Virus record (IMG/VR): IMGVR_UViG_3300029288_000054
Location: 134,607-198,606 of that record
Length of the DNA stretch: 64,000 nt
DNA from: a virus
Lineage: Duplodnaviria; Heunggongvirae; Uroviricota; Caudoviricetes
Strand: one strand, 5' to 3'
This document shows, one piece after another, positions 13,537 to 62,070 of the stretch. The number at the start of each line of letters is the position of its first letter. Position 1 is the stretch's first letter. The notes under the pieces were generated by a model. That model was given only the letters and a program-made list of their open reading frames with translations, was not told the DNA's origin and made no database searches. The translations under genes and the position numbers were made by a program.

Positions 13537-13570
13537 TCGAACTTTCCATCTTGGAAATTCAAGACGGTCA

Positions 13571-13747: not shown

Positions 13748-13814
13748 GATGCTGTGCCTGTAGTAGAAAGGTTTCCAGGATGGAAATTCAACCTATCTAC
13801 TTGCCCAGCGTCGT

Positions 13815-13991: not shown

Positions 13992-14154
13992 AGTCCGCCC
14001 TTTCCAAACAGGAAATTAGTTATTTGAACGATTGGCTTGATGACACGACGCCAGCAGGAACGTAGTTATAGCACCAACGGCCATGAGCCCTAAGCAGAGG
14101 AACTTAAAGCTCCAGAGTAAGAACCACTTGCCGGTATAAAAGGCGAGCGAAAGT

Positions 14155-19807: not shown

Positions 19808-20011
19808 ATGAAGTGCTTCGACAAACTCCTCCAGGATTTTGTTAGTGCGGCACGATCCGGTCAAGTCCTAGAGCCTACCACAGAGACGCAGCGACGAGTC
19901 ATGCACGTTCTAGCCAAAAAGGCTGCCGACCAAGGGATCGAGCTAGATGGATTCGAGATTAGGGAGCTATCGCCGACAAACGGCCATAGCCGACAACTCG
20001 TTTTCACCTAG
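19808..20011 (+). CDS. hypothetical protein
   Basis: 67-aa ORF. Confidence 0.5.
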   Translation: MKCFDKLLQDFVSAARSGQVLEPTTETQRRVMHVLAKKAADQGIELDGFEIRELSPTNGHSRQLVFT

Positions 20012-20156
20012 CCTTGCTCGTCTCCAATACACGGACACTGCTGCCGTTGTACATCTCACGGGCTAGCCGCGCAGCGGCACCGGCGTCATTGGCGTCGATG
20101 CGAACTTGAGTGTTGCGTCCTTCAACGATCAGCTTTACGACATACGTGGTCATCAT
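20004..20156 (-). CDS. 50-aa hypothetical protein
   Basis: Manual translation MMTTYVVKLIVEGRNTQVRIDANDAGAAARLAREMY...; GGAGA RBS; downstream of the tRNA-like RNA. Confidence 0.65.
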   Translation of the reverse strand: MMTTYVVKLIVEGRNTQVRIDANDAGAAARLAREMYNGSSVRVLETSKAR

Positions 20157-20186
20157 AGTCTCCAAAAGGTTTCCAAGGTGGAAATG

Positions 20187-20276
20187 AGAGCGGGTCGGGA
20201 CTCACTAGGTGCTCACCCGAATTACCGGACCTTAGTAGTACCAGTCCGGCGTTCTTGGCCGTTGAACTACCCGCCC
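20187..20276 (-). ncRNA. tRNA-like RNA with enlarged anticodon and T loops
   Basis: GGGCGGG-TA-GTTC AACGGCCAA GAAC-G-CCGGAC TGGTACTACTAAG GTCCGG-TAAT-TCGGG TGAGCACCTAGTGAGT CCCGA-CCCGCTC-T; starts at the promoter +1. Confidence 0.7.
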
Positions 20277-20281
20277 ACCTT

Positions 20282-20310
20282 ATTATAGCACCGGTGGGCC
20301 GAGTTGTTAA
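20282..20310 (-). promoter_or_regulatory. phage promoter for the tRNA-like RNA
   Basis: TTAACA-17-TATAAT; RNA G1 follows 5 nt later. Confidence 0.75.
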
Positions 20311-20594
20311 GTTAAGCCAGCGACAACCATGTCATAGATCTCGTCACGCATGTTTTCCCAGTGGGGGTCGCCGGGTTCGAACACGGCATCTTCGATCTGC
20401 GTGATGATCCAGTCAGAAGCATCGAGAGATTGGCCTCTGTTGTAGTCGGGGAATAGTTCGTAAGCTTGCTCGAATAGGCCAGAGGGGACGACCACTTCTT
20501 GGTAGAATTCCTCTGGATCGGTGATACGCTGAGCGGCCAGTAACCTGCGGGCACTGTGGCTCCAATGCCTCTGATCGTCTTCGTGAGTATTCAT
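20307..20594 (-). CDS. hypothetical protein
   Basis: GGAGG RBS and promoter (-10 at 20610-20615) before MNTHEDDQ. Confidence 0.7.
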   Translation of the reverse strand: MNTHEDDQRHWSHSARRLLAAQRITDPEEFYQEVVVPSGLFEQAYELFPDYNRGQSLDASDWIITQIEDAVFEPGDPHWENMRDEIYDMVVAGLT

Positions 20595-26768: not shown

Positions 26769-26821
26769 TTTCCATTTTGGAAACCGAACATGGTAGATAA
26801 GGGTCAGGAGGACCATCTACC

Positions 26822-33451: not shown

Positions 33452-33695
33452 ACCGTCTGAATACTCAAACAGCCATGGCGACGACAAGCCACCATGGCTG
33501 TTGCACAGGAACACTATTTCGGTTTCTCGTAGTTGACTGGCGGACCGTCCCACATTCGAACAGGTCGAGCAGGATAAAGCACTATCTCGCCTTGCTCGTT
33601 CAGCTTCACCATCCCTAGGGTGTTGCCAACGCCGTCCTTCAACTTCGTCAACTTAGAAGTCAACTTAATCTGTTTTGTTTCCATTTAGGAAAGGG

Positions 33696-33944
33696 CTAAA
33701 CCACTCCTATTGGCAAGTCGGTCTTTTCGGTTGTCACCTTACCGCCGTTTCGGACAGCCCAATCGGCACGATTAGCGAAATCCCTTTGGGCGTCTCGGTC
33801 GTCCCAGTCGATGACCCGCTTGTGACACTCGCCTGTGTCGGCATAAAAGACAGTGCAGAGGACTTTCAACACGATTCGTTCCTTTCCAGTCAGGAAACTA
33901 CCACTCGCCGATGATCTTGCGTAGCTCCTTTTCAAAGTCGTCAC
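33696..33944 (-). CDS. hypothetical protein
   Basis: 82-aa ORF in a minus-strand run. Confidence 0.55.
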   Translation of the reverse strand: MTTLKRSYARSSASGSFLTGKERIVLKVLCTVFYADTGECHKRVIDWDDRDAQRDFANRADWAVRNGGKVTTEKTDLPIGVV

Positions 33945-34239: not shown

Positions 34240-34262
34240 GCTCTCCCTTTCCAGCTAGGAAA

Positions 34263-58576: not shown

Positions 58577-58764
58577 GATTTCATCCTATCTTTAATAATG
58601 TTTTCAATAACTACCAACAATTCTGGCATTGTGTTGCAGAACAGTGTGTGCCGCATGCCGTCGGCGGCCATATACATAACTCGAAAAAGATCGCCAGCCT
58701 TATCAAGTTTGCCCGTCTGCCGGTTGATACCTTGAATGGTGATTCTATCGCCAAGCTCGCTCAT
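58507..58764 (-). CDS. hypothetical protein
   Basis: Overlaps the upstream stop; the 3' end overlaps the DUF6527 gene. Confidence 0.45.
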   Translation of the reverse strand: MSELGDRITIQGINRQTGKLDKAGDLFRVMYMAADGMRHTLFCNTMPELLVVIENIIKDRMKSCKTSKPTELPTTSTPKSPATSS

Positions 58765-59630
58765 TATTTAACCTTGTTGTATCTGAAAGACCCATCGAAA
58801 TCCATATGCCATGCGAACAAGCATGGATCGGTAAGTTCGAAGAATGGGTTAATCTCTAATAGCTTTACTTCAATATCACGTGAATTTGGGCCTGCCTTTC
58901 TCACCTTCACAAATACATCAAATACGAGATCGTGAAGGGCCGTAGCTTCGCGAAACATTTTGAAAAACTCGCGGATAGCCCATTCACACATTCCGGGGTC
59001 CAATTCCGGGAATACTTCACCTTTTAAATAATTGTATTGCGAAATACCGACTAATTGCCTGTCTTTCATGAAGCATCTGAATTCAGACCATCTCGGTATC
59101 TCAACCCATTGTCGCACCCAGATATGCGGCAGGTAATCCTTTTTGATAGCTAGCATCAAATCTTCATAAATCCGTTCTGAGCAATCCAGCAGGTATTGAA
59201 GCGGATCTTGTCCTGAAATTATCTTGCCTCCGCTTCTTTGTAACGCCCAAGAGTCTTTTGGCGATCTGCTACCAAGTCGTATGAAAGCACCGTTTGGCAT
59301 TTTTTCTACGGCTTCCGAAACTTTAGCTCTGATATCGCCAATATCGCAGCGTGCATCGCCAGTTGGTTTAATAAAATCAACTCTGTCTGGCGGTTCCGGC
59401 TGATGCAGCATTCTCGCAGTAGCGGCCTGTGCATTCCATGATGCTGCACGTTCGTTGTGCTTCATGGTAGCATCATCACAAAAAGCTTCGCCATATTCCA
59501 TAATATTGGAACCCAGGCGGCGAGCAGCACCGTCTTCTAGCAAGATATCAATAGACGGAATGCTCAGAGTGTGTAATGACTGTTCCCAATTCTCGATGTA
59601 AGTCGGCTTAACTAAATCCCAGTAGTCCAT
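58764..59630 (-). CDS. Cdc123/R2K-clade ATP-grasp protein
   Basis: FIRLGSRSPKDS, EFRCF, VGISQY, VFDVFV, LLEINPF. Confidence 0.8.
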   Translation of the reverse strand: MDYWDLVKPTYIENWEQSLHTLSIPSIDILLEDGAARRLGSNIMEYGEAFCDDATMKHNERAASWNAQAATARMLHQPEPPDRVDFIKPTGDARCDIGDIRAKVSEAVEKMPNGAFIRLGSRSPKDSWALQRSGGKIISGQDPLQYLLDCSERIYEDLMLAIKKDYLPHIWVRQWVEIPRWSEFRCFMKDRQLVGISQYNYLKGEVFPELDPGMCEWAIREFFKMFREATALHDLVFDVFVKVRKAGPNSRDIEVKLLEINPFFELTDPCLFAWHMDFDGSFRYNKVK

Positions 59631-59638
59631 ATTCCACC

Positions 59639-59815
59639 TTATTGCGGAAGCTCCACAGTGAATTGCAAGCCACAATGCGGGCACTTGTACGATTGGGTGT
59701 CACCGCTTGGCCATCCACTCTGCTGCTCACCGACTGCAACAGCATCAGGGTGAATAGCTCGACCCATATCAGGCTTCCAAGGATTATCAACAGTACAAAT
59801 ATGGCGTTCGCTCAT
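59639..59815 (-). CDS. 58-aa hypothetical protein
   Basis: Manual translation MSERHIC...YKCPHCGLQF; ATGA overlap with the S4 gene. Confidence 0.6.
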   Translation of the reverse strand: MSERHICTVDNPWKPDMGRAIHPDAVAVGEQQSGWPSGDTQSYKCPHCGLQFTVELPQ

Positions 59816-60042
59816 TGGATACCGGTGCTTAATGGTAATTTGCTGCCCACAAAGATGGGTATTTGATGGCCGACTTGTACGGTGTCCGACGATTTGAAAT
59901 CGAACACCTGAGTCAAGTCCTCAACGATCTTACCGTTGATTTTAACAGCACCTTGGACTACAACACGGCGACCTTCAGATACGCTTGTGGTTTGCCCTAA
60001 ATGAGTGAGAAGTTGAGCGACTGTTCCTTGAAAGACTTTCAT
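59812..60042 (-). CDS. stand-alone S4 RNA-binding domain (TyrRS C-terminal type)
   Basis: LL..LG..TSVSEGRRVVVQGAVKING...VQVG. Confidence 0.75.
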   Translation of the reverse strand: MKVFQGTVAQLLTHLGQTTSVSEGRRVVVQGAVKINGKIVEDLTQVFDFKSSDTVQVGHQIPIFVGSKLPLSTGIQ

Positions 60043-60051
60043 AATACTATC

Positions 60052-60759
60052 CTATGTTGGTTTCCAGTTCCAAACGTCCTCACCATAAGTTTCAGCGAAG
60101 TATTTGCCGTCAACTTTATCGCCTCGGACGAATTTTGCGAGGAAATCAACTCGGCCAAGTCTCTCAACTCGATATACGACGCCTTCAATAGGATCAATAG
60201 CACCATGATGATTTCGTTCTTGAGCAAATTTGAGAGCGACCGATGGGAGCATTGGTGGCCCCATTGATATTACGAAAGGTGTAATCAGTCGCGTGGCAGC
60301 GATGCGCTCGCAAAATTCGCTGAATACAGCTCGTCTGTCGAGCTTTTTACGGCTCTTCATAATATCGAAAGGCACAAAAGGTTCGTGCCACAACTTATAG
60401 CGGGTGCTATGTGCTAATGCGAGCCACTCTCCGACGACCCTTTCACCCTCTTCGAGCCAGGTAAAACGATCAACGTTCTCCATCACCCAGTTATGAAACA
60501 TCCGATGATGATGCCAGGGGGCTGAGACGGCTGGCCATCCGGCCCTATTCAACGGCATAATCAAACCATTGAGCCGGGCAACGGCACAACATGAACCATC
60601 AAGTTTCTCCTGAATAATAACCCGGTCGAATTCGTCGCGTACCTTCTTGGTGCAGATGACGGCCATCCCCTCATCGACATTATGGTCACCAGGGCCAAGC
60701 CGACTATTCGGCAGGTGCCCGATGCTACCATACGCTTTACGCCCAAGTGGTTTGCTCAT
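60052..60759 (-). CDS. RNA ligase (Rnl2-like nucleotidyltransferase)
   Basis: QEKLDGS, GEW, FVPFD, EGVVYR, LAKFVR; start at the second Met because the promoter -10 overlaps ATG 60798. Confidence 0.8.
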   Translation of the reverse strand: MSKPLGRKAYGSIGHLPNSRLGPGDHNVDEGMAVICTKKVRDEFDRVIIQEKLDGSCCAVARLNGLIMPLNRAGWPAVSAPWHHHRMFHNWVMENVDRFTWLEEGERVVGEWLALAHSTRYKLWHEPFVPFDIMKSRKKLDRRAVFSEFCERIAATRLITPFVISMGPPMLPSVALKFAQERNHHGAIDPIEGVVYRVERLGRVDFLAKFVRGDKVDGKYFAETYGEDVWNWKPT

Positions 60760-60885
60760 ATCGATGAAATACTCTGTATTTAAACGATGCTTTTCCATTA
60801 TAGCACGAAGACCTATGCTGAATAATTACGTACTGGCGCATTTCGTGCTATAATAGAATATTGGACACCACACTACGAGGTACAC

Positions 60886-61401
60886 ATGGCCAATTTACCG
60901 TCAAGAGAAAGCAATCCTGATGGATTGCACCAACGCTATATTGTCAACAAAGCCGATGGTACGTCGAATCCTGACGCGAAATATTTTGTGCTGCGTCTGG
61001 ATTTGGAGGGTAGCGACAAAGAACACACAGCGGCCTGTCGTAAGGCTGCACAGACCTATATCCGCAACGCTCCGAAGCATATGCGTAGAGTTGCCGAAGA
61101 ACTGGTCGAGTGGGCTGATCTTCAGGAGCCGGAAGATCCGAAGATCAACGCTCAAATCCACGAGATGATCGACAGGCTTACGGCATGGGTCAGACTGGAA
61201 ACGCTTGGTTTTAGCCTGAATTGGATCGAAGGTGACGCGACTCACGAAGCAGGTTGGGTTGTTGGACACGCCAAAGAGCATAAGCCTGTTGAAATGGCTG
61301 ACGATGGCTGGCAAAAACGGTATCCGACTCAATTCGAAGCTATTAATGCAGCCGCACGGGTTGTTGCCCGAGGCCCTCAAGTTTCGAGTTCGCCAAGCTA
61401 A
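60886..61401 (+). CDS. hypothetical protein
   Basis: GAGG RBS and promoter -10 at 60849-60854. Confidence 0.7.
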   Translation: MANLPSRESNPDGLHQRYIVNKADGTSNPDAKYFVLRLDLEGSDKEHTAACRKAAQTYIRNAPKHMRRVAEELVEWADLQEPEDPKINAQIHEMIDRLTAWVRLETLGFSLNWIEGDATHEAGWVVGHAKEHKPVEMADDGWQKRYPTQFEAINAAARVVARGPQVSSSPS

Positions 61402-61560
61402 GAGCCTCACGCAGACTGAGAATTTCCAGTTTTGCGGTGTTCGACACCAGAGAGGCCATTAGCAGCCCTTTGGCATTTAGCATTTTTGTCATTTCGTCCA
61501 TACAGAGTATCAGGTCAAATCCTTCGTCCATCTTTCTCCTCCATTTTGGAAATACATACA

Positions 61561-62070
61561 ATGATTGTAGTAAAAGCAGAGCAATTAGCACGAACAGCAC
61601 ACCAAGGACAATTTCGGAAATATACTGGCGAGCCGTATATCGTCCATCCGGAGGCCGTTGCCAACATTGTGGCATCGGTAACTGACGACTCAGTGATGCT
61701 CGCTGCTGCTTGGTTGCATGATGTTGTCGAGGATACTAGTGTAACCATCGACATGATCGAGGCCGGATTTGGTCCCGAGATCGCCTCTGTCGTTGCTGAC
61801 GTCACGAACATCACTAAGAAATCCGATGGAAACCGCCAATATCGTAAGGGTATAGAGAAGCAGCACTTAGCCGGGGCATCACAGAAAGCCAAAACTGTTA
61901 AACTTGCCGACATACTACACAACGTGCCCGACATTATCAGGAACGACCCTGGATTTGCGCGTACCTATGTGGCAGAAAAGCAAGCTGTCCTGGAAGTTCT
62001 GATTGGCGGCGACGAAAACCTGTATGCTGCTGCAAAGCAGATTATAGATGGATTTCTTGCGTCCTGTTAA
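61561..62070 (+). CDS. HD-domain hydrolase, RelA/SpoT (Mesh1/SAH)-like
   Basis: AHQGQFRKYTGEPYIVHP..VA, AAWLHDVVEDT, VKLADILHN. Confidence 0.9.
   Translation: MIVVKAEQLARTAHQGQFRKYTGEPYIVHPEAVANIVASVTDDSVMLAAAWLHDVVEDTSVTIDMIEAGFGPEIASVVADVTNITKKSDGNRQYRKGIEKQHLAGASQKAKTVKLADILHNVPDIIRNDPGFARTYVAEKQAVLEVLIGGDENLYAAAKQIIDGFLASC

What the first reader, a model, noticed from the sequence alone, without database searches (positions are those of the whole stretch)
20187..20310. Promoter-driven tRNA mimic with expanded anticodon and T loops
Seen: a 7-bp acceptor stem, U8-A9, 4-bp D stem with GG loop, 6-bp anticodon stem and 5-bp T stem are intact. The anticodon loop is 13 nt (starting CT-GGT-AC, Thr-like, counting the stem C) and the T loop is 16 nt (ending GAGT). 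G1 sits exactly at the +1 of a phage promoter. The two insertions are partly complementary (TACTA/TAGTG). Inference: intact stems with both loops remodelled fit a selected decoy or regulatory RNA better than a decaying tRNA. It may also be a precursor needing loop excision and ligation by the phage RNA ligase.
Basis: partly seen in the sequence, partly recalled or inferred. Interest (0 to 1): 0.82.

Follow-up and report, generated by a model that had tools for sequence, protein, structure and literature searches.

The report
Conserved non-decoding tRNA-shaped phage RNA
A giant phage and some of its relatives keep, right after an early promoter, a 90-base RNA that folds like a tRNA but has remodelled loops and cannot read codons; evolution preserves its shape, so it has a job of its own, most likely imitating a tRNA.

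Summary
It lies on the minus strand (cloverleaf 20276-20187, promoter 20310-20282). The window comes from a 388-kb IMG/VR jumbo phage.

ARAGORN and Rfam do not call the element a tRNA (14.6 bits against a cut-off of 29).

It is not decaying. I found seven distinct homologues in related phages and metagenome contigs. All four stems are kept through compensatory changes: 9 of 22 pairs change on both sides, 98% of cells are paired, and 0 of 500 shuffles reach this. Loop sequences are far more conserved than neighbouring synonymous sites (about 0.65-0.9 against about 0.5 identity). G-U pairs fix the strand.

The 13-nt anticodon loop is kept in all seven. The T arm varies (6, 15 or 16 nt). No relative has a normal tRNA at this site.

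The element is accessory. A complete relative and several contigs lack it, and one keeps a deletion remnant.

No excision can restore a canonical T loop, so the "spliced pre-tRNA" idea is not supported. The complementarity between the two loops is not conserved. In two lineages the -10 box is degenerate.

The function is inferred only. My best guess is an early-made tRNA mimic that binds a tRNA-recognising factor. The main rival is a cis-acting leader or processing module. No expression data could be obtained.

This scan has noted similar tRNA-shaped leader RNAs in other phages.

The parts
20305..20310 (-). -35 hexamer TTAACA; overlaps the stop codon of the upstream 95-aa gene
   Evidence: 11 of 12 match, 17-nt spacer. 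The same aTTAAc motif precedes many TGCTATAAT boxes in the genome.
20282..20290 (-). Extended -10 box TGcTATAAT
   Evidence: Kept as TATAAT or TATAAA in L002, L016/17 and L024. Degenerate in L019 (TAGGAA) and L022 (TACAAC).
20187..20276 (-). 90-nt tRNA-shaped RNA: acceptor stem 7 bp, D arm 4 bp with a 9-nt loop, anticodon-like arm 6 bp (+U-G) with a 13-nt loop, 4-nt variable region, T-like arm 5 bp with a 16-nt loop, and the discriminator
   Evidence: Sequence; minimum-energy fold; covariance model hits in 7 distinct sequences; covariation.
20231..20243 (-). 13-nt anticodon-like loop; consensus U-G-R-K-M-C-W-A-C-U-A-A-G; its length is invariant in all homologues
   Evidence: Alignment A3.
20200..20215 (-). 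Expanded T-like loop. It is probably an internal loop (UGAG/AGU) plus a 3-bp mini-stem (CAC/GUG) and a triloop. In the L019 lineage it is replaced by a 6-nt loop.
   Evidence: RNAalifold pairs 71-73/77-79, with one C-G to G-U change.
20170..20184 (-). Palindrome/hairpin TTTCC-N5-GGAAA between the cloverleaf and the ribosome-binding site
   Evidence: eight copies in window 13.5-34 kb. Also present in the leaders of L002, L007, L017 and L024.
20004..20156 (-). Conserved 50-aa gene that always follows the element (SD GGAG at 20163-20160)
   Evidence: Predicted beta-beta-alpha-beta fold, pLDDT 95.
20307..20594 (-). Upstream 95-aa gene of unknown function; it ends inside the -35 box
   Evidence: Its orthologues precede the element in L019, L022 and L024.

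Best explanation
SHOWN
- This is a tRNA-derived RNA of about 90 nt that cannot decode. Its four-helix tRNA-like fold, its D loop and its enlarged 13-nt anticodon-like loop are all kept by purifying selection in a clade of jumbo phages.
- It lies on the minus strand, directly after a strong sigma-70-type early promoter, and it forms the first 90 nt of the transcript of a conserved 50-aa gene.
- It is an accessory element. It is old in the clade and has been lost repeatedly.

INFERRED
- It acts as a tRNA mimic. Made at once on infection, it would fold into a tRNA-like L-shape. This fits the kept U8, A14, A15/U48, G18G19, A21 and G53-C61, and the 12-bp acceptor/T stack.
- It would offer its anticodon-like arm and core to a protein that normally recognises tRNA, for example a host tRNA-directed defence nuclease or a tRNA-modifying or tRNA-charging enzyme. 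It would act as a bait or competitor, not as an adaptor.
- It may work while still attached to the mRNA, or after release by host tRNA-end nucleases (RNase Z or RNase E at the U-rich trailer; RNase P where it is read through from upstream).
For: Structure under selection:
- 7 distinct homologues; 9 of 22 pairs carry changes on both sides; 98.1% of cells are paired.
- 0 of 500 shuffles reach the observed values.
- Sliding the 3' partners drops pairing to 60% or less.
- RNAalifold finds the same cloverleaf on its own.

Sequence under selection:
- Element identity is 0.65-0.98 and unpaired positions 0.62-0.96, against 0.48-0.69 at synonymous third positions of the neighbouring helicase, the near-identical pair L016/L017 (0.93) excepted.

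Strand and coding:
- Many G-U pairs occur only on the minus strand.
- No reading frame is open in all homologues.

tRNA origin:
- The Rfam tRNA model aligns the acceptor, D and anticodon arms (14.6 bits).
- The junction lengths are 2/1/4-5/0, and the core nucleotides are invariant in A3.

Not a tRNA:
-.
- The 13-nt loop is present in all seven; the T loop is 6, 15 or 16 nt.

Points favouring a mimic over a pure processing signal:
- The anticodon-like arm has the most covariation (4 of 6 pairs) and a loop of fixed length with an invariant ACUAAG.
- The T loop is free to vary.
- The cloverleaf folds as a separate domain, with no conserved pairing to the ribosome-binding site.

Accessory, early-gene character, as is typical of counter-defence functions:
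- Strong early promoter.
- Patchy presence on the helicase tree, needing at least 4 changes.
- A complete 364-kb relative has none.
- A deletion remnant survives in L010-12.

Genome context: the same genome carries an Rnl2-type RNA ligase. According to an earlier follow-up note (e1-5432840, not re-tested here) it also carries a Ro60 gene with tRNA-like Y RNAs.
Against: - There are no expression, end-mapping or binding data.
- No partner protein is identified.
- The canonical T loop that forms the tRNA elbow with G18/G19 is missing, so a true L-shape is not assured.
- The element lacks the CT(T/A) that follows the discriminator of all five real tRNA genes of this phage. It may therefore not be matured like a tRNA.
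- It is always tied to the same downstream gene, which also fits a cis-acting role.
- Only 7 sequences from one clade are available. The alignment used for pair counts was fitted to the model.
Confidence: 0.4

Rival explanations
1. Cis-acting leader module, comparable to plant-mitochondrial t-elements, the mascRNA of MALAT1, or the 5' tRNA-like part of MHV68 TMER transcripts. The cloverleaf would serve the mRNA it heads. It could cap the 5' end with a stable structure against 5'-end-dependent decay. It could also be a cleavage signal for RNase Z or RNase P that sets the 5' end of the 50-aa gene's mRNA and uncouples it from the upstream gene.
For: - It always lies between the promoter or upstream gene and the same 50-aa gene.
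- The first transcribed bases are locked in a 7-bp stem.
- The 12-bp acceptor/T stack is intact, which is what RNase P and RNase Z measure (established knowledge; not tested here).
- The trailers are U-rich in all homologues.
- In L019 and L022 the -10 box is degenerate, so a 5' end would need processing.
- Lineages that lost the element still express the gene from the same promoter, so the element is a dispensable modifier.
Against: - A pure processing or stability signal does not explain the invariant 13-nt loop with ACUAAG, the conserved D loop, or the heavy covariation of the anticodon-like arm, while the T loop varies.
- Most other early promoters of this phage are followed by very short leaders.
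- There is no conserved pairing with the ribosome-binding site.
Confidence: 0.3
2. Operator for a protein that controls the downstream gene, working like the tRNA-Thr-like operator of E. coli thrS or like ribosomal-protein operators. A tRNA-binding protein, or the 50-aa product itself, would bind the cloverleaf and tune expression.
For: - Fixed linkage to one gene.
- Conserved loops suggest a sequence-specific ligand.
- The operator-like palindrome TTTCC-N5-GGAAA lies next to the element.
Against: - The distance from the cloverleaf to the start codon varies between homologues, and the ribosome-binding site is not sequestered.
- The gene is kept, with the promoter, in lineages without the element.
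- The product's fold gives only weak matches, to RNA-polymerase binders rather than RNA binders.
Confidence: 0.12
3. Base-pairing riboregulator: the 13-nt loop pairs with a host or phage RNA.
For: A long, single-stranded, conserved loop is presented on a stable stem.
Against: - Complementary 9-mers in the phage genome occur only at chance frequency and not at gene starts.
- The host is unknown, so host targets could not be searched.
Confidence: 0.08
4. Precursor of a real tRNA that needs excision of both loop insertions and ligation by the phage RNA ligase.
For: - The genome has an Rnl2-type RNA ligase.
- Phage tRNAs with unexplained introns are known from Lak megaphages (PMC6784885).
- In 5 of 7 sequences the first seven loop-region bases read like an anticodon loop (C-U-NNN-A-C).
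Against: - No contiguous excision of the T loop yields U54-U55-C56-R57-A58, and the short L019 T loop is also non-canonical.
- L019 and L022 have C at position 37.
- No bulge-helix-bulge is evident by eye in the arms.
- ARAGORN with introns allowed finds nothing at its default thresholds.
- No RtcB is present.
Confidence: 0.03
5. Decaying tRNA pseudogene, or a chance fold.
For: - The single-sequence folding z-score is only -2.3.
- The element has been lost repeatedly.
Against: Compensatory changes, conservation far above the neutral rate, and a fixed loop length in lineages whose synonymous sites are near saturation.
Confidence: 0.03

Closest known systems
Transfer RNA (Rfam RF00005); its D arm resembles that of tRNA-Gly
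   Same: - Four-arm cloverleaf with a 7-bp acceptor stem, a 4-bp D stem and a 5-bp T stem.
- Junctions of 2/1/4-5/0 nt.
- U8, A14, A15/U48, G18G19, A21 and G53-C61.
- The D arm is very similar to that of E. coli glyU (a hint only).
   Different: - 13-nt anticodon loop.
- 6- to 7-bp anticodon stem.
- T loop of 6, 15 or 16 nt without T-Psi-C.
- 14.6 bits against a cut-off of 29, and no ARAGORN call.
- No CCA, and no CT(T/A) trailer of the kind the phage's own tRNAs have.
tRNA-like processing modules in longer transcripts: plant-mitochondrial t-elements, mascRNA of MALAT1, and the 5' tRNA-like part of MHV68 TMER RNAs (comparison from my own knowledge; titles seen)
   Same: A non-decoding tRNA-shaped domain that is joined to another functional RNA and is placed where tRNA-end nucleases could cut.
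   Different: - Those are eukaryotic or organellar.
- Their anticodon arms are the least constrained part. Here the anticodon-like arm is the most constrained.
- Cleavage is not shown here.
YrlA-type Y RNAs with a tRNA-like domain (Rfam RF02553). The same phage has Ro60 and Y RNAs about 26 kb away
   Same: A phage- or bacterium-encoded tRNA look-alike that does not decode, in a genome rich in RNA-repair genes.
   Different: - No Rfam match even at E<=10.
- No Ro60-binding stem.
- Not next to the Ro60 gene.
- The covariance model of this element does not hit the Y RNA region.
Lak megaphage tRNAs with 'enigmatic introns' (Devoto et al. 2019, PMC6784885), and the 'long tRNA-like' or tRNA-shaped leader RNAs noted earlier by this scan (e1-1722036, e1-3413963)
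   Same: A huge-phage tRNA-shaped gene with extra sequence in the anticodon region. In the scan notes, it also sits just after an early promoter or before a ribosome-binding site.
   Different: - Lak genes are called as tRNAs once the insert is removed, and alleles without the insert exist. Neither is true here.
- There is no sequence similarity to earlier scan items.
E. coli thrS mRNA operator (tRNA-Thr anticodon-arm mimic in a 5' leader; from my own knowledge)
   Same: tRNA mimicry inside a 5' leader, upstream of a ribosome-binding site.
   Different: The thrS operator copies a 7-nt anticodon loop and abuts the ribosome-binding site. Here the loop is 13 nt, the distance to the ribosome-binding site varies, and no aminoacyl-tRNA synthetase gene is involved.

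Membership tests
tRNA (RF00005) | Cloverleaf with acceptor, D, anticodon and T stems and tRNA junction lengths | tested here: met
   Stems of 7/4/6/5 bp and junctions of 2/1/4-5/0 nt in all 7 homologues; 98% of cells paired.
tRNA (RF00005) | 7-nt anticodon loop with U33 and a purine at position 37 | tested here: not met
   The loop is 13 nt in all seven sequences (11 nt if the U-G pair is counted).
tRNA (RF00005) | 7-nt T loop of the T54-Psi55-C56-R57-A58 type | tested here: not met
   Loops of 16, 15 or 6 nt, beginning UGAG or UAAA.
tRNA (RF00005) | Passes the detection thresholds of the covariance model or ARAGORN | tested here: not met
   14.6 bits against a gathering score of 29. No ARAGORN call in the window or in any homologous locus.
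tRNA (RF00005) | Conserved core nucleotides (U8, A14, R15/Y48, G18G19, A21, G53-C61) | tested here: met
   All are invariant in alignment A3. Their tertiary pairing is inferred, not shown.
tRNA (RF00005) | CCA addition and aminoacylation | not testable with these tools
Intron-containing pre-tRNA (archaeal type, or Lak phage type) | Removing a contiguous insert restores canonical loops, and insert-free alleles exist | tested here: not met
   No excision of the T loop can give UUCRA. L019 and L022 fail the purine-37 rule. No insert-free allele exists among 7 homologues and 8 distinct element-free relatives.
Y RNA / YrlA (RF02553) | Match to the family model, and a Ro60-binding stem next to the tRNA-like domain | tested here: not met
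   The family is not among the Rfam matches up to E=10 for 20120-20330.
tRNA-like processing module (t-element / mascRNA type) | Endonucleolytic release by RNase P and/or RNase Z | not testable with these tools
   Only the preconditions are seen: a 12-bp acceptor/T stack and a U-rich trailer.
Early sigma-70-type promoter family of this phage (aTTAAc-N17-TGcTATAAT) | Both hexamers, the spacing and the extended -10 | tested here: met
   11 of 12 positions plus TG in the window. The family is seen genome-wide. It is kept in L002, L016/17 and L024, and is degenerate in L019 and L022.

The most novel reading that the evidence does not exclude
The RNA is an early-expressed phage counter-defence bait: a tRNA look-alike whose enlarged, non-decodable anticodon loop occupies or misleads a host tRNA-directed immunity nuclease, or another tRNA-reading enzyme. 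This would protect the real tRNA pool. Its patchy distribution would then track which hosts carry that defence. It would be an RNA-only anti-defence factor of a kind not yet described for tRNA-targeting systems.
Probability: 0.2. Interest if true: 0.85.

Novelty: new variant of a known kind. Interest (0 to 1): 0.62.

Why it matters
Phage tRNA genes are usually read as codon-usage helpers or as replacements for tRNAs cut by host defences. This is a different case: a tRNA-derived RNA that clearly cannot decode, yet is held in shape by selection in several lineages and is made from a strong early promoter.

It defines a new RNA family that no Rfam model matches. It adds to the tRNA look-alikes noted in this same giant phage. 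It also gives a compact, testable object for asking what reads the anticodon-arm end of a tRNA during infection.

If it proves to be a bait for a tRNA-directed defence or enzyme, it would be a new class of RNA-based counter-defence. If it is only a leader or processing module, it would extend tRNA punctuation of mRNAs to phages.

Tried and rejected
Searches for more copies or relatives:
- Megablast and blastn of the region against INPHARED phages: no match.
- blastn of the element against E. coli genomes: no match.
- Pattern scans of IMG/VR found only the one relative already known.
- The metagenome scan gave one true new homologue (L024) and seven chance matches that the covariance model rejected.
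- The genome-contig scan gave one chance match, in a Leptothoe genome.
- Searches of IMG/VR with the upstream 95-aa protein and with the 50-aa protein alignment gave nothing new.
- Covariance models R1 and R2 found no second copy in the own genome or in the two related IMG/VR records. They did not match the Y RNA region.

Ideas tested and rejected:
- Protein-coding reading: no frame is open in all homologues.
- Kissing interaction between the two enlarged loops: substitutions break it.
- Pairing of the loops with the ribosome-binding site, or with other phage sequences: nothing above chance.
- Remnants of the element in L007, L009, L008, L013 and L033: alignment scores fall within the shuffled range. 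Only L010-12 stands out, through an exact 13-nt match at the same place.
- CRISPR-repeat, boxB and k-turn resemblances were considered by eye and dropped, because the motifs do not fit.

Other:
- Pfam and PHROGs on neighbouring genes gave only a ResIII helicase.
- The structure search for the 50-aa protein gave only weak matches.

Full report
**1. What is there**

The window is part of a 388,105-bp IMG/VR virus record, 99% complete by CheckV. It is a jumbo phage.

The finding lies on the minus strand. Read 5' to 3', the parts are:
- a -35 hexamer TTAACA (20310-20305)
- a 17-nt spacer
- an extended -10 box TGcTATAAT (20290-20282)
- five bases
- a 90-nt cloverleaf (20276-20187)

The promoter matches the consensus at 11 of 12 positions and has the TG extension. 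It is one of many copies of an aTTAAc...TGCTATAAT promoter family spread over the genome. Most of those promoters are followed within about 10-20 nt by a ribosome-binding site. A 90-nt structured insert between promoter and ribosome-binding site is therefore unusual for this phage.

ARAGORN finds five ordinary tRNA genes in the genome and none here, even with introns allowed. At the gathering threshold Rfam finds only the tRNA-Leu of the window. At a relaxed threshold the tRNA model aligns the acceptor, D and anticodon arms but scores 14.6 bits against a cut-off of 29.

Alone, the sequence folds into the cloverleaf as its minimum-energy structure, with a modest z-score of -2.3.

**2. Relatives**

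Public phage records gave no match.

The neighbouring helicase led to two related IMG/VR genomes. One of them (L002) carries a homologue at the same place, with visible compensatory changes.

The conserved 50-aa gene just downstream has 14 relatives in the protein collection. Their contigs, plus one metagenome pattern scan, were searched with a covariance model built from the first two sequences.

Seven distinct copies resulted: the window, L002, L016, L017 (identical to L018), L019 (identical to L020), L022 and L024. All lie directly upstream of the 50-aa gene.

No second copy exists in the own genome or in the two related IMG/VR records.

**3. Selection on the structure**

- On the seven sequences, 98.1% of pair cells are standard pairs. 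Nine of 22 pairs carry changes on both sides: 2 in the acceptor stem, 1 in the D stem, 4 of 6 in the anticodon-like stem and 2 in the T stem.
- No shuffle out of 500 reaches the observed pairing or covariation. Sliding the 3' partners by one to three columns drops pairing to 26-60%.
- The alignment was fitted to the model, which favours the structure. However, RNAalifold predicts the same four helices on its own, plus the closing U-G pair and a 3-bp mini-stem inside the T loop.
- The many G-U pairs would be A-C mismatches on the other strand. So the transcribed strand is the minus strand, which agrees with the promoter.
- One homologue (L024) has stops in all six frames, so no frame is open in all homologues.

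**4. Selection on the sequence**

Between lineages whose helicase genes are at 0.48-0.57 identity at synonymous third positions (near saturation), the element is 0.65-0.83 identical. Its unpaired positions are 0.62-0.89 identical.

The following are invariant: U8; the D-loop pattern AAYGGCYAA; the loop-closing C-G and U-G pairs; ACUAAG at the 3' side of the 13-nt loop; the last two bases (AU) of the variable region; and the G-C pair that closes the T stem.

These include the positions that build the tRNA core (U8-A14, A15-U48, G18G19, A21, G53-C61). That reading rests on textbook tRNA structure and is an inference.

The anticodon-like loop is 13 nt in every copy. Only positions 3-5 and 7 vary: GGUAC-U, GAUAC-U or GAUAC-A, and GAGCC-U.

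The T arm is the free part. Its loop is 16 or 15 nt in most lineages, with UGAG...UGAG flanks and a small CAC/GUG stem that shows one C-G to G-U change. In the L019 lineage it is only 6 nt (UAAAGU).

**5. What it is not**

- Not a working tRNA: there is no 7-nt anticodon loop and no T-Psi-C loop.
- Not a decaying pseudogene (sections 3 and 4).
- Not a pre-tRNA to be trimmed and ligated:
  - No contiguous deletion of the T loop can produce U54-U55-C56-R57-A58.
  - The naturally short T loop of L019 is also non-canonical.
  - Two lineages have C at the would-be position 37.
  - The would-be anticodon differs between lineages (GGU, GAU, GAG).
  - No relative has an insert-free allele, which is what Devoto et al. 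used to define the introns of Lak phage tRNAs (PMC6784885).
  - The genome does have an Rnl2-type RNA ligase, but no RtcB and no CCA-adding enzyme.
- The complementarity between the two loops (TACTA/TAGTG) is real in the window. It is broken by single substitutions in L016, L017, L024 and L022, and it is absent in L019.
ARAGORN finds no tRNA at this site in any locus.

**6. An old but dispensable element**

Relatives without the element:
- L003. Its complete 364-kb genome has no copy anywhere.
- L007 and L009, L008, L013-15, and L021.
- L033.

L010-12 keep, at the same distance from the promoter, an exact 13-nt piece of the acceptor/D-arm 5' side (CGGGTAGTTTAAC), followed by an 8-nt piece of the T loop. 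This looks like a deletion remnant. For the other element-free leaders the similarity is not above shuffled controls.

On a helicase tree the element occurs on both sides of the deepest split. Its distribution needs at least four changes. This fits an ancestral element lost several times, although recombination cannot be excluded.

The -10 box is TATAAT or TATAAA, with the same 5-nt distance to the first G, in the window, L002, L016/17 and L024. In L019 and L022 it is TAGGAA and TACAAC, which lack the critical last T. There the RNA would have to be made by read-through from the upstream 95-aa gene. So a start exactly at G1 is not a universal feature.

**7. Context**

The downstream 50-aa protein is highly conserved. 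Its model is a confident beta-beta-alpha-beta fold (pLDDT 95). Structure searches give only weak matches. The best are the RNA-polymerase binders T7 Gp2 and YkzG (E about 0.2-0.3, TM 0.6-0.7). There is also a sub-threshold Pfam hit to DpnD/PcfM.

Between the cloverleaf and the ribosome-binding site lies the palindrome TTTCC-N5-GGAAA. It recurs eight times in intergenic leaders of window 13.5-34 kb, and also in relatives' leaders.

Folding each leader from the first stem base to the start codon keeps the cloverleaf as a separate domain in four of six. In the other two (L002, L019) the acceptor stem is re-paired with downstream leader sequence. None shows a conserved pairing to the ribosome-binding site.

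The trailers after the discriminator are U-rich in all homologues. They lack the CT(T/A) that follows the discriminator of all five real tRNA genes of the phage, none of which encodes CCA.

Other neighbours are a ResIII helicase and proteins without family matches.

Earlier notes of this scan report tRNA-like Y RNAs with a Ro60 gene, and further tRNA-like modules, in the same genome. I did not re-test them.

**8. Mechanism**

Shown: a selected, strand-specific, non-coding RNA of tRNA origin at the head of an early transcript.

Inferred: what it does.

I favour a tRNA mimic that binds a tRNA-recognising protein (confidence about 0.4), for these reasons:
- The constraint is concentrated where tRNA-reading enzymes and nucleases bind: the core, the D loop and the anticodon-like arm with its loop.
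- The T loop, which matters for the ribosome and the elbow, is free to vary.
- The element is expressed from a strong early promoter.
- It is accessory and often lost, as counter-defence functions are.
- It is independent of the ribosome-binding site.
- The genome is otherwise invested in tRNA-related RNA biology.

The main rival (about 0.3) is a cis-acting leader: a 5' structure that stabilises the mRNA, or a cleavage signal for RNase Z or RNase P in the manner of t-elements, mascRNA or MHV68 TMERs. It explains the fixed linkage to one gene and the intact 12-bp acceptor/T stack. It does not explain the conserved 13-nt loop.

An operator role, an antisense role, the splicing idea and the pseudogene idea rank lower, for the reasons given under the rival explanations.

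**9. Novelty**

No Rfam family matches, and I found no paper describing this element.

The general kind is known: non-decoding tRNA look-alikes, and tRNA-like domains joined to other RNAs. This scan has also noted tRNA-shaped leader RNAs and 'long tRNA-like' genes after early promoters in other phages (e1-3413963, e1-1722036). They share no sequence with this element.

I therefore class it as a new variant of a known kind: a new, small RNA family with good comparative support and an open function.

Noticed in passing
window 13543-13557, 13772-13786, 14001-14015, 20170-20184, 26769-26783, 33678-33692, 33883-33897, 34248-34262: The palindrome TTTCC-N5-GGAAA recurs eight times, mostly in intergenic leaders just before a ribosome-binding site. 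It also occurs in the leaders of relatives (L002, L003, L007, L017, L024). It looks like an operator for a dimeric DNA-binding protein, or an RNA hairpin for a translational regulator.
   Followed up: partly
window 20004-20156 (minus strand): Highly conserved 50-aa early protein with a confident beta-beta-alpha-beta model (pLDDT 95). It has only weak structural likeness to the RNA-polymerase binders T7 Gp2 and YkzG, and a sub-threshold DpnD/PcfM Pfam hit. It may be a host-polymerase-binding early protein.
   Followed up: partly
G000:C1 151532-151615, 216136-216223, 216277-216352, 218293-218366, 218378-218453: None of the five real tRNA genes of the phage encodes CCA. Each is followed, right after the discriminator, by CT(T/A), which may be a shared 3'-processing signal. 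The cloverleaf studied here lacks it.
   Followed up: partly
window 12000-36000: A block of higher G+C content (0.51-0.56) lies between flanks of 0.44-0.49. It coincides with the zone that holds the TTTCC-N5-GGAAA palindromes and the element.
   Followed up: no
L002:5130-5310; L007:19-204; L010:2227-2412; L017:2164-2346: Many relatives carry an extra gene of about 60 aa between the 95-aa gene and the promoter. It is missing in the window, L019, L022 and L024. The spot is a hotspot of small insertions and deletions.
   Followed up: no
window 58764-62070: An Rnl2-type RNA ligase (PF09414), a D123/Cdc123-like ATP-grasp protein (PF07065) and an HD_4 domain protein lie close together. No RtcB or CCA-adding enzyme is found in the genome.
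   Followed up: partly
L010:2420-2500 (also L011, L012): The leader keeps a 13-nt exact piece of the element's 5' side and an 8-nt piece of its T loop, after the same promoter. This is a natural deletion derivative of the cloverleaf.
   Followed up: yes
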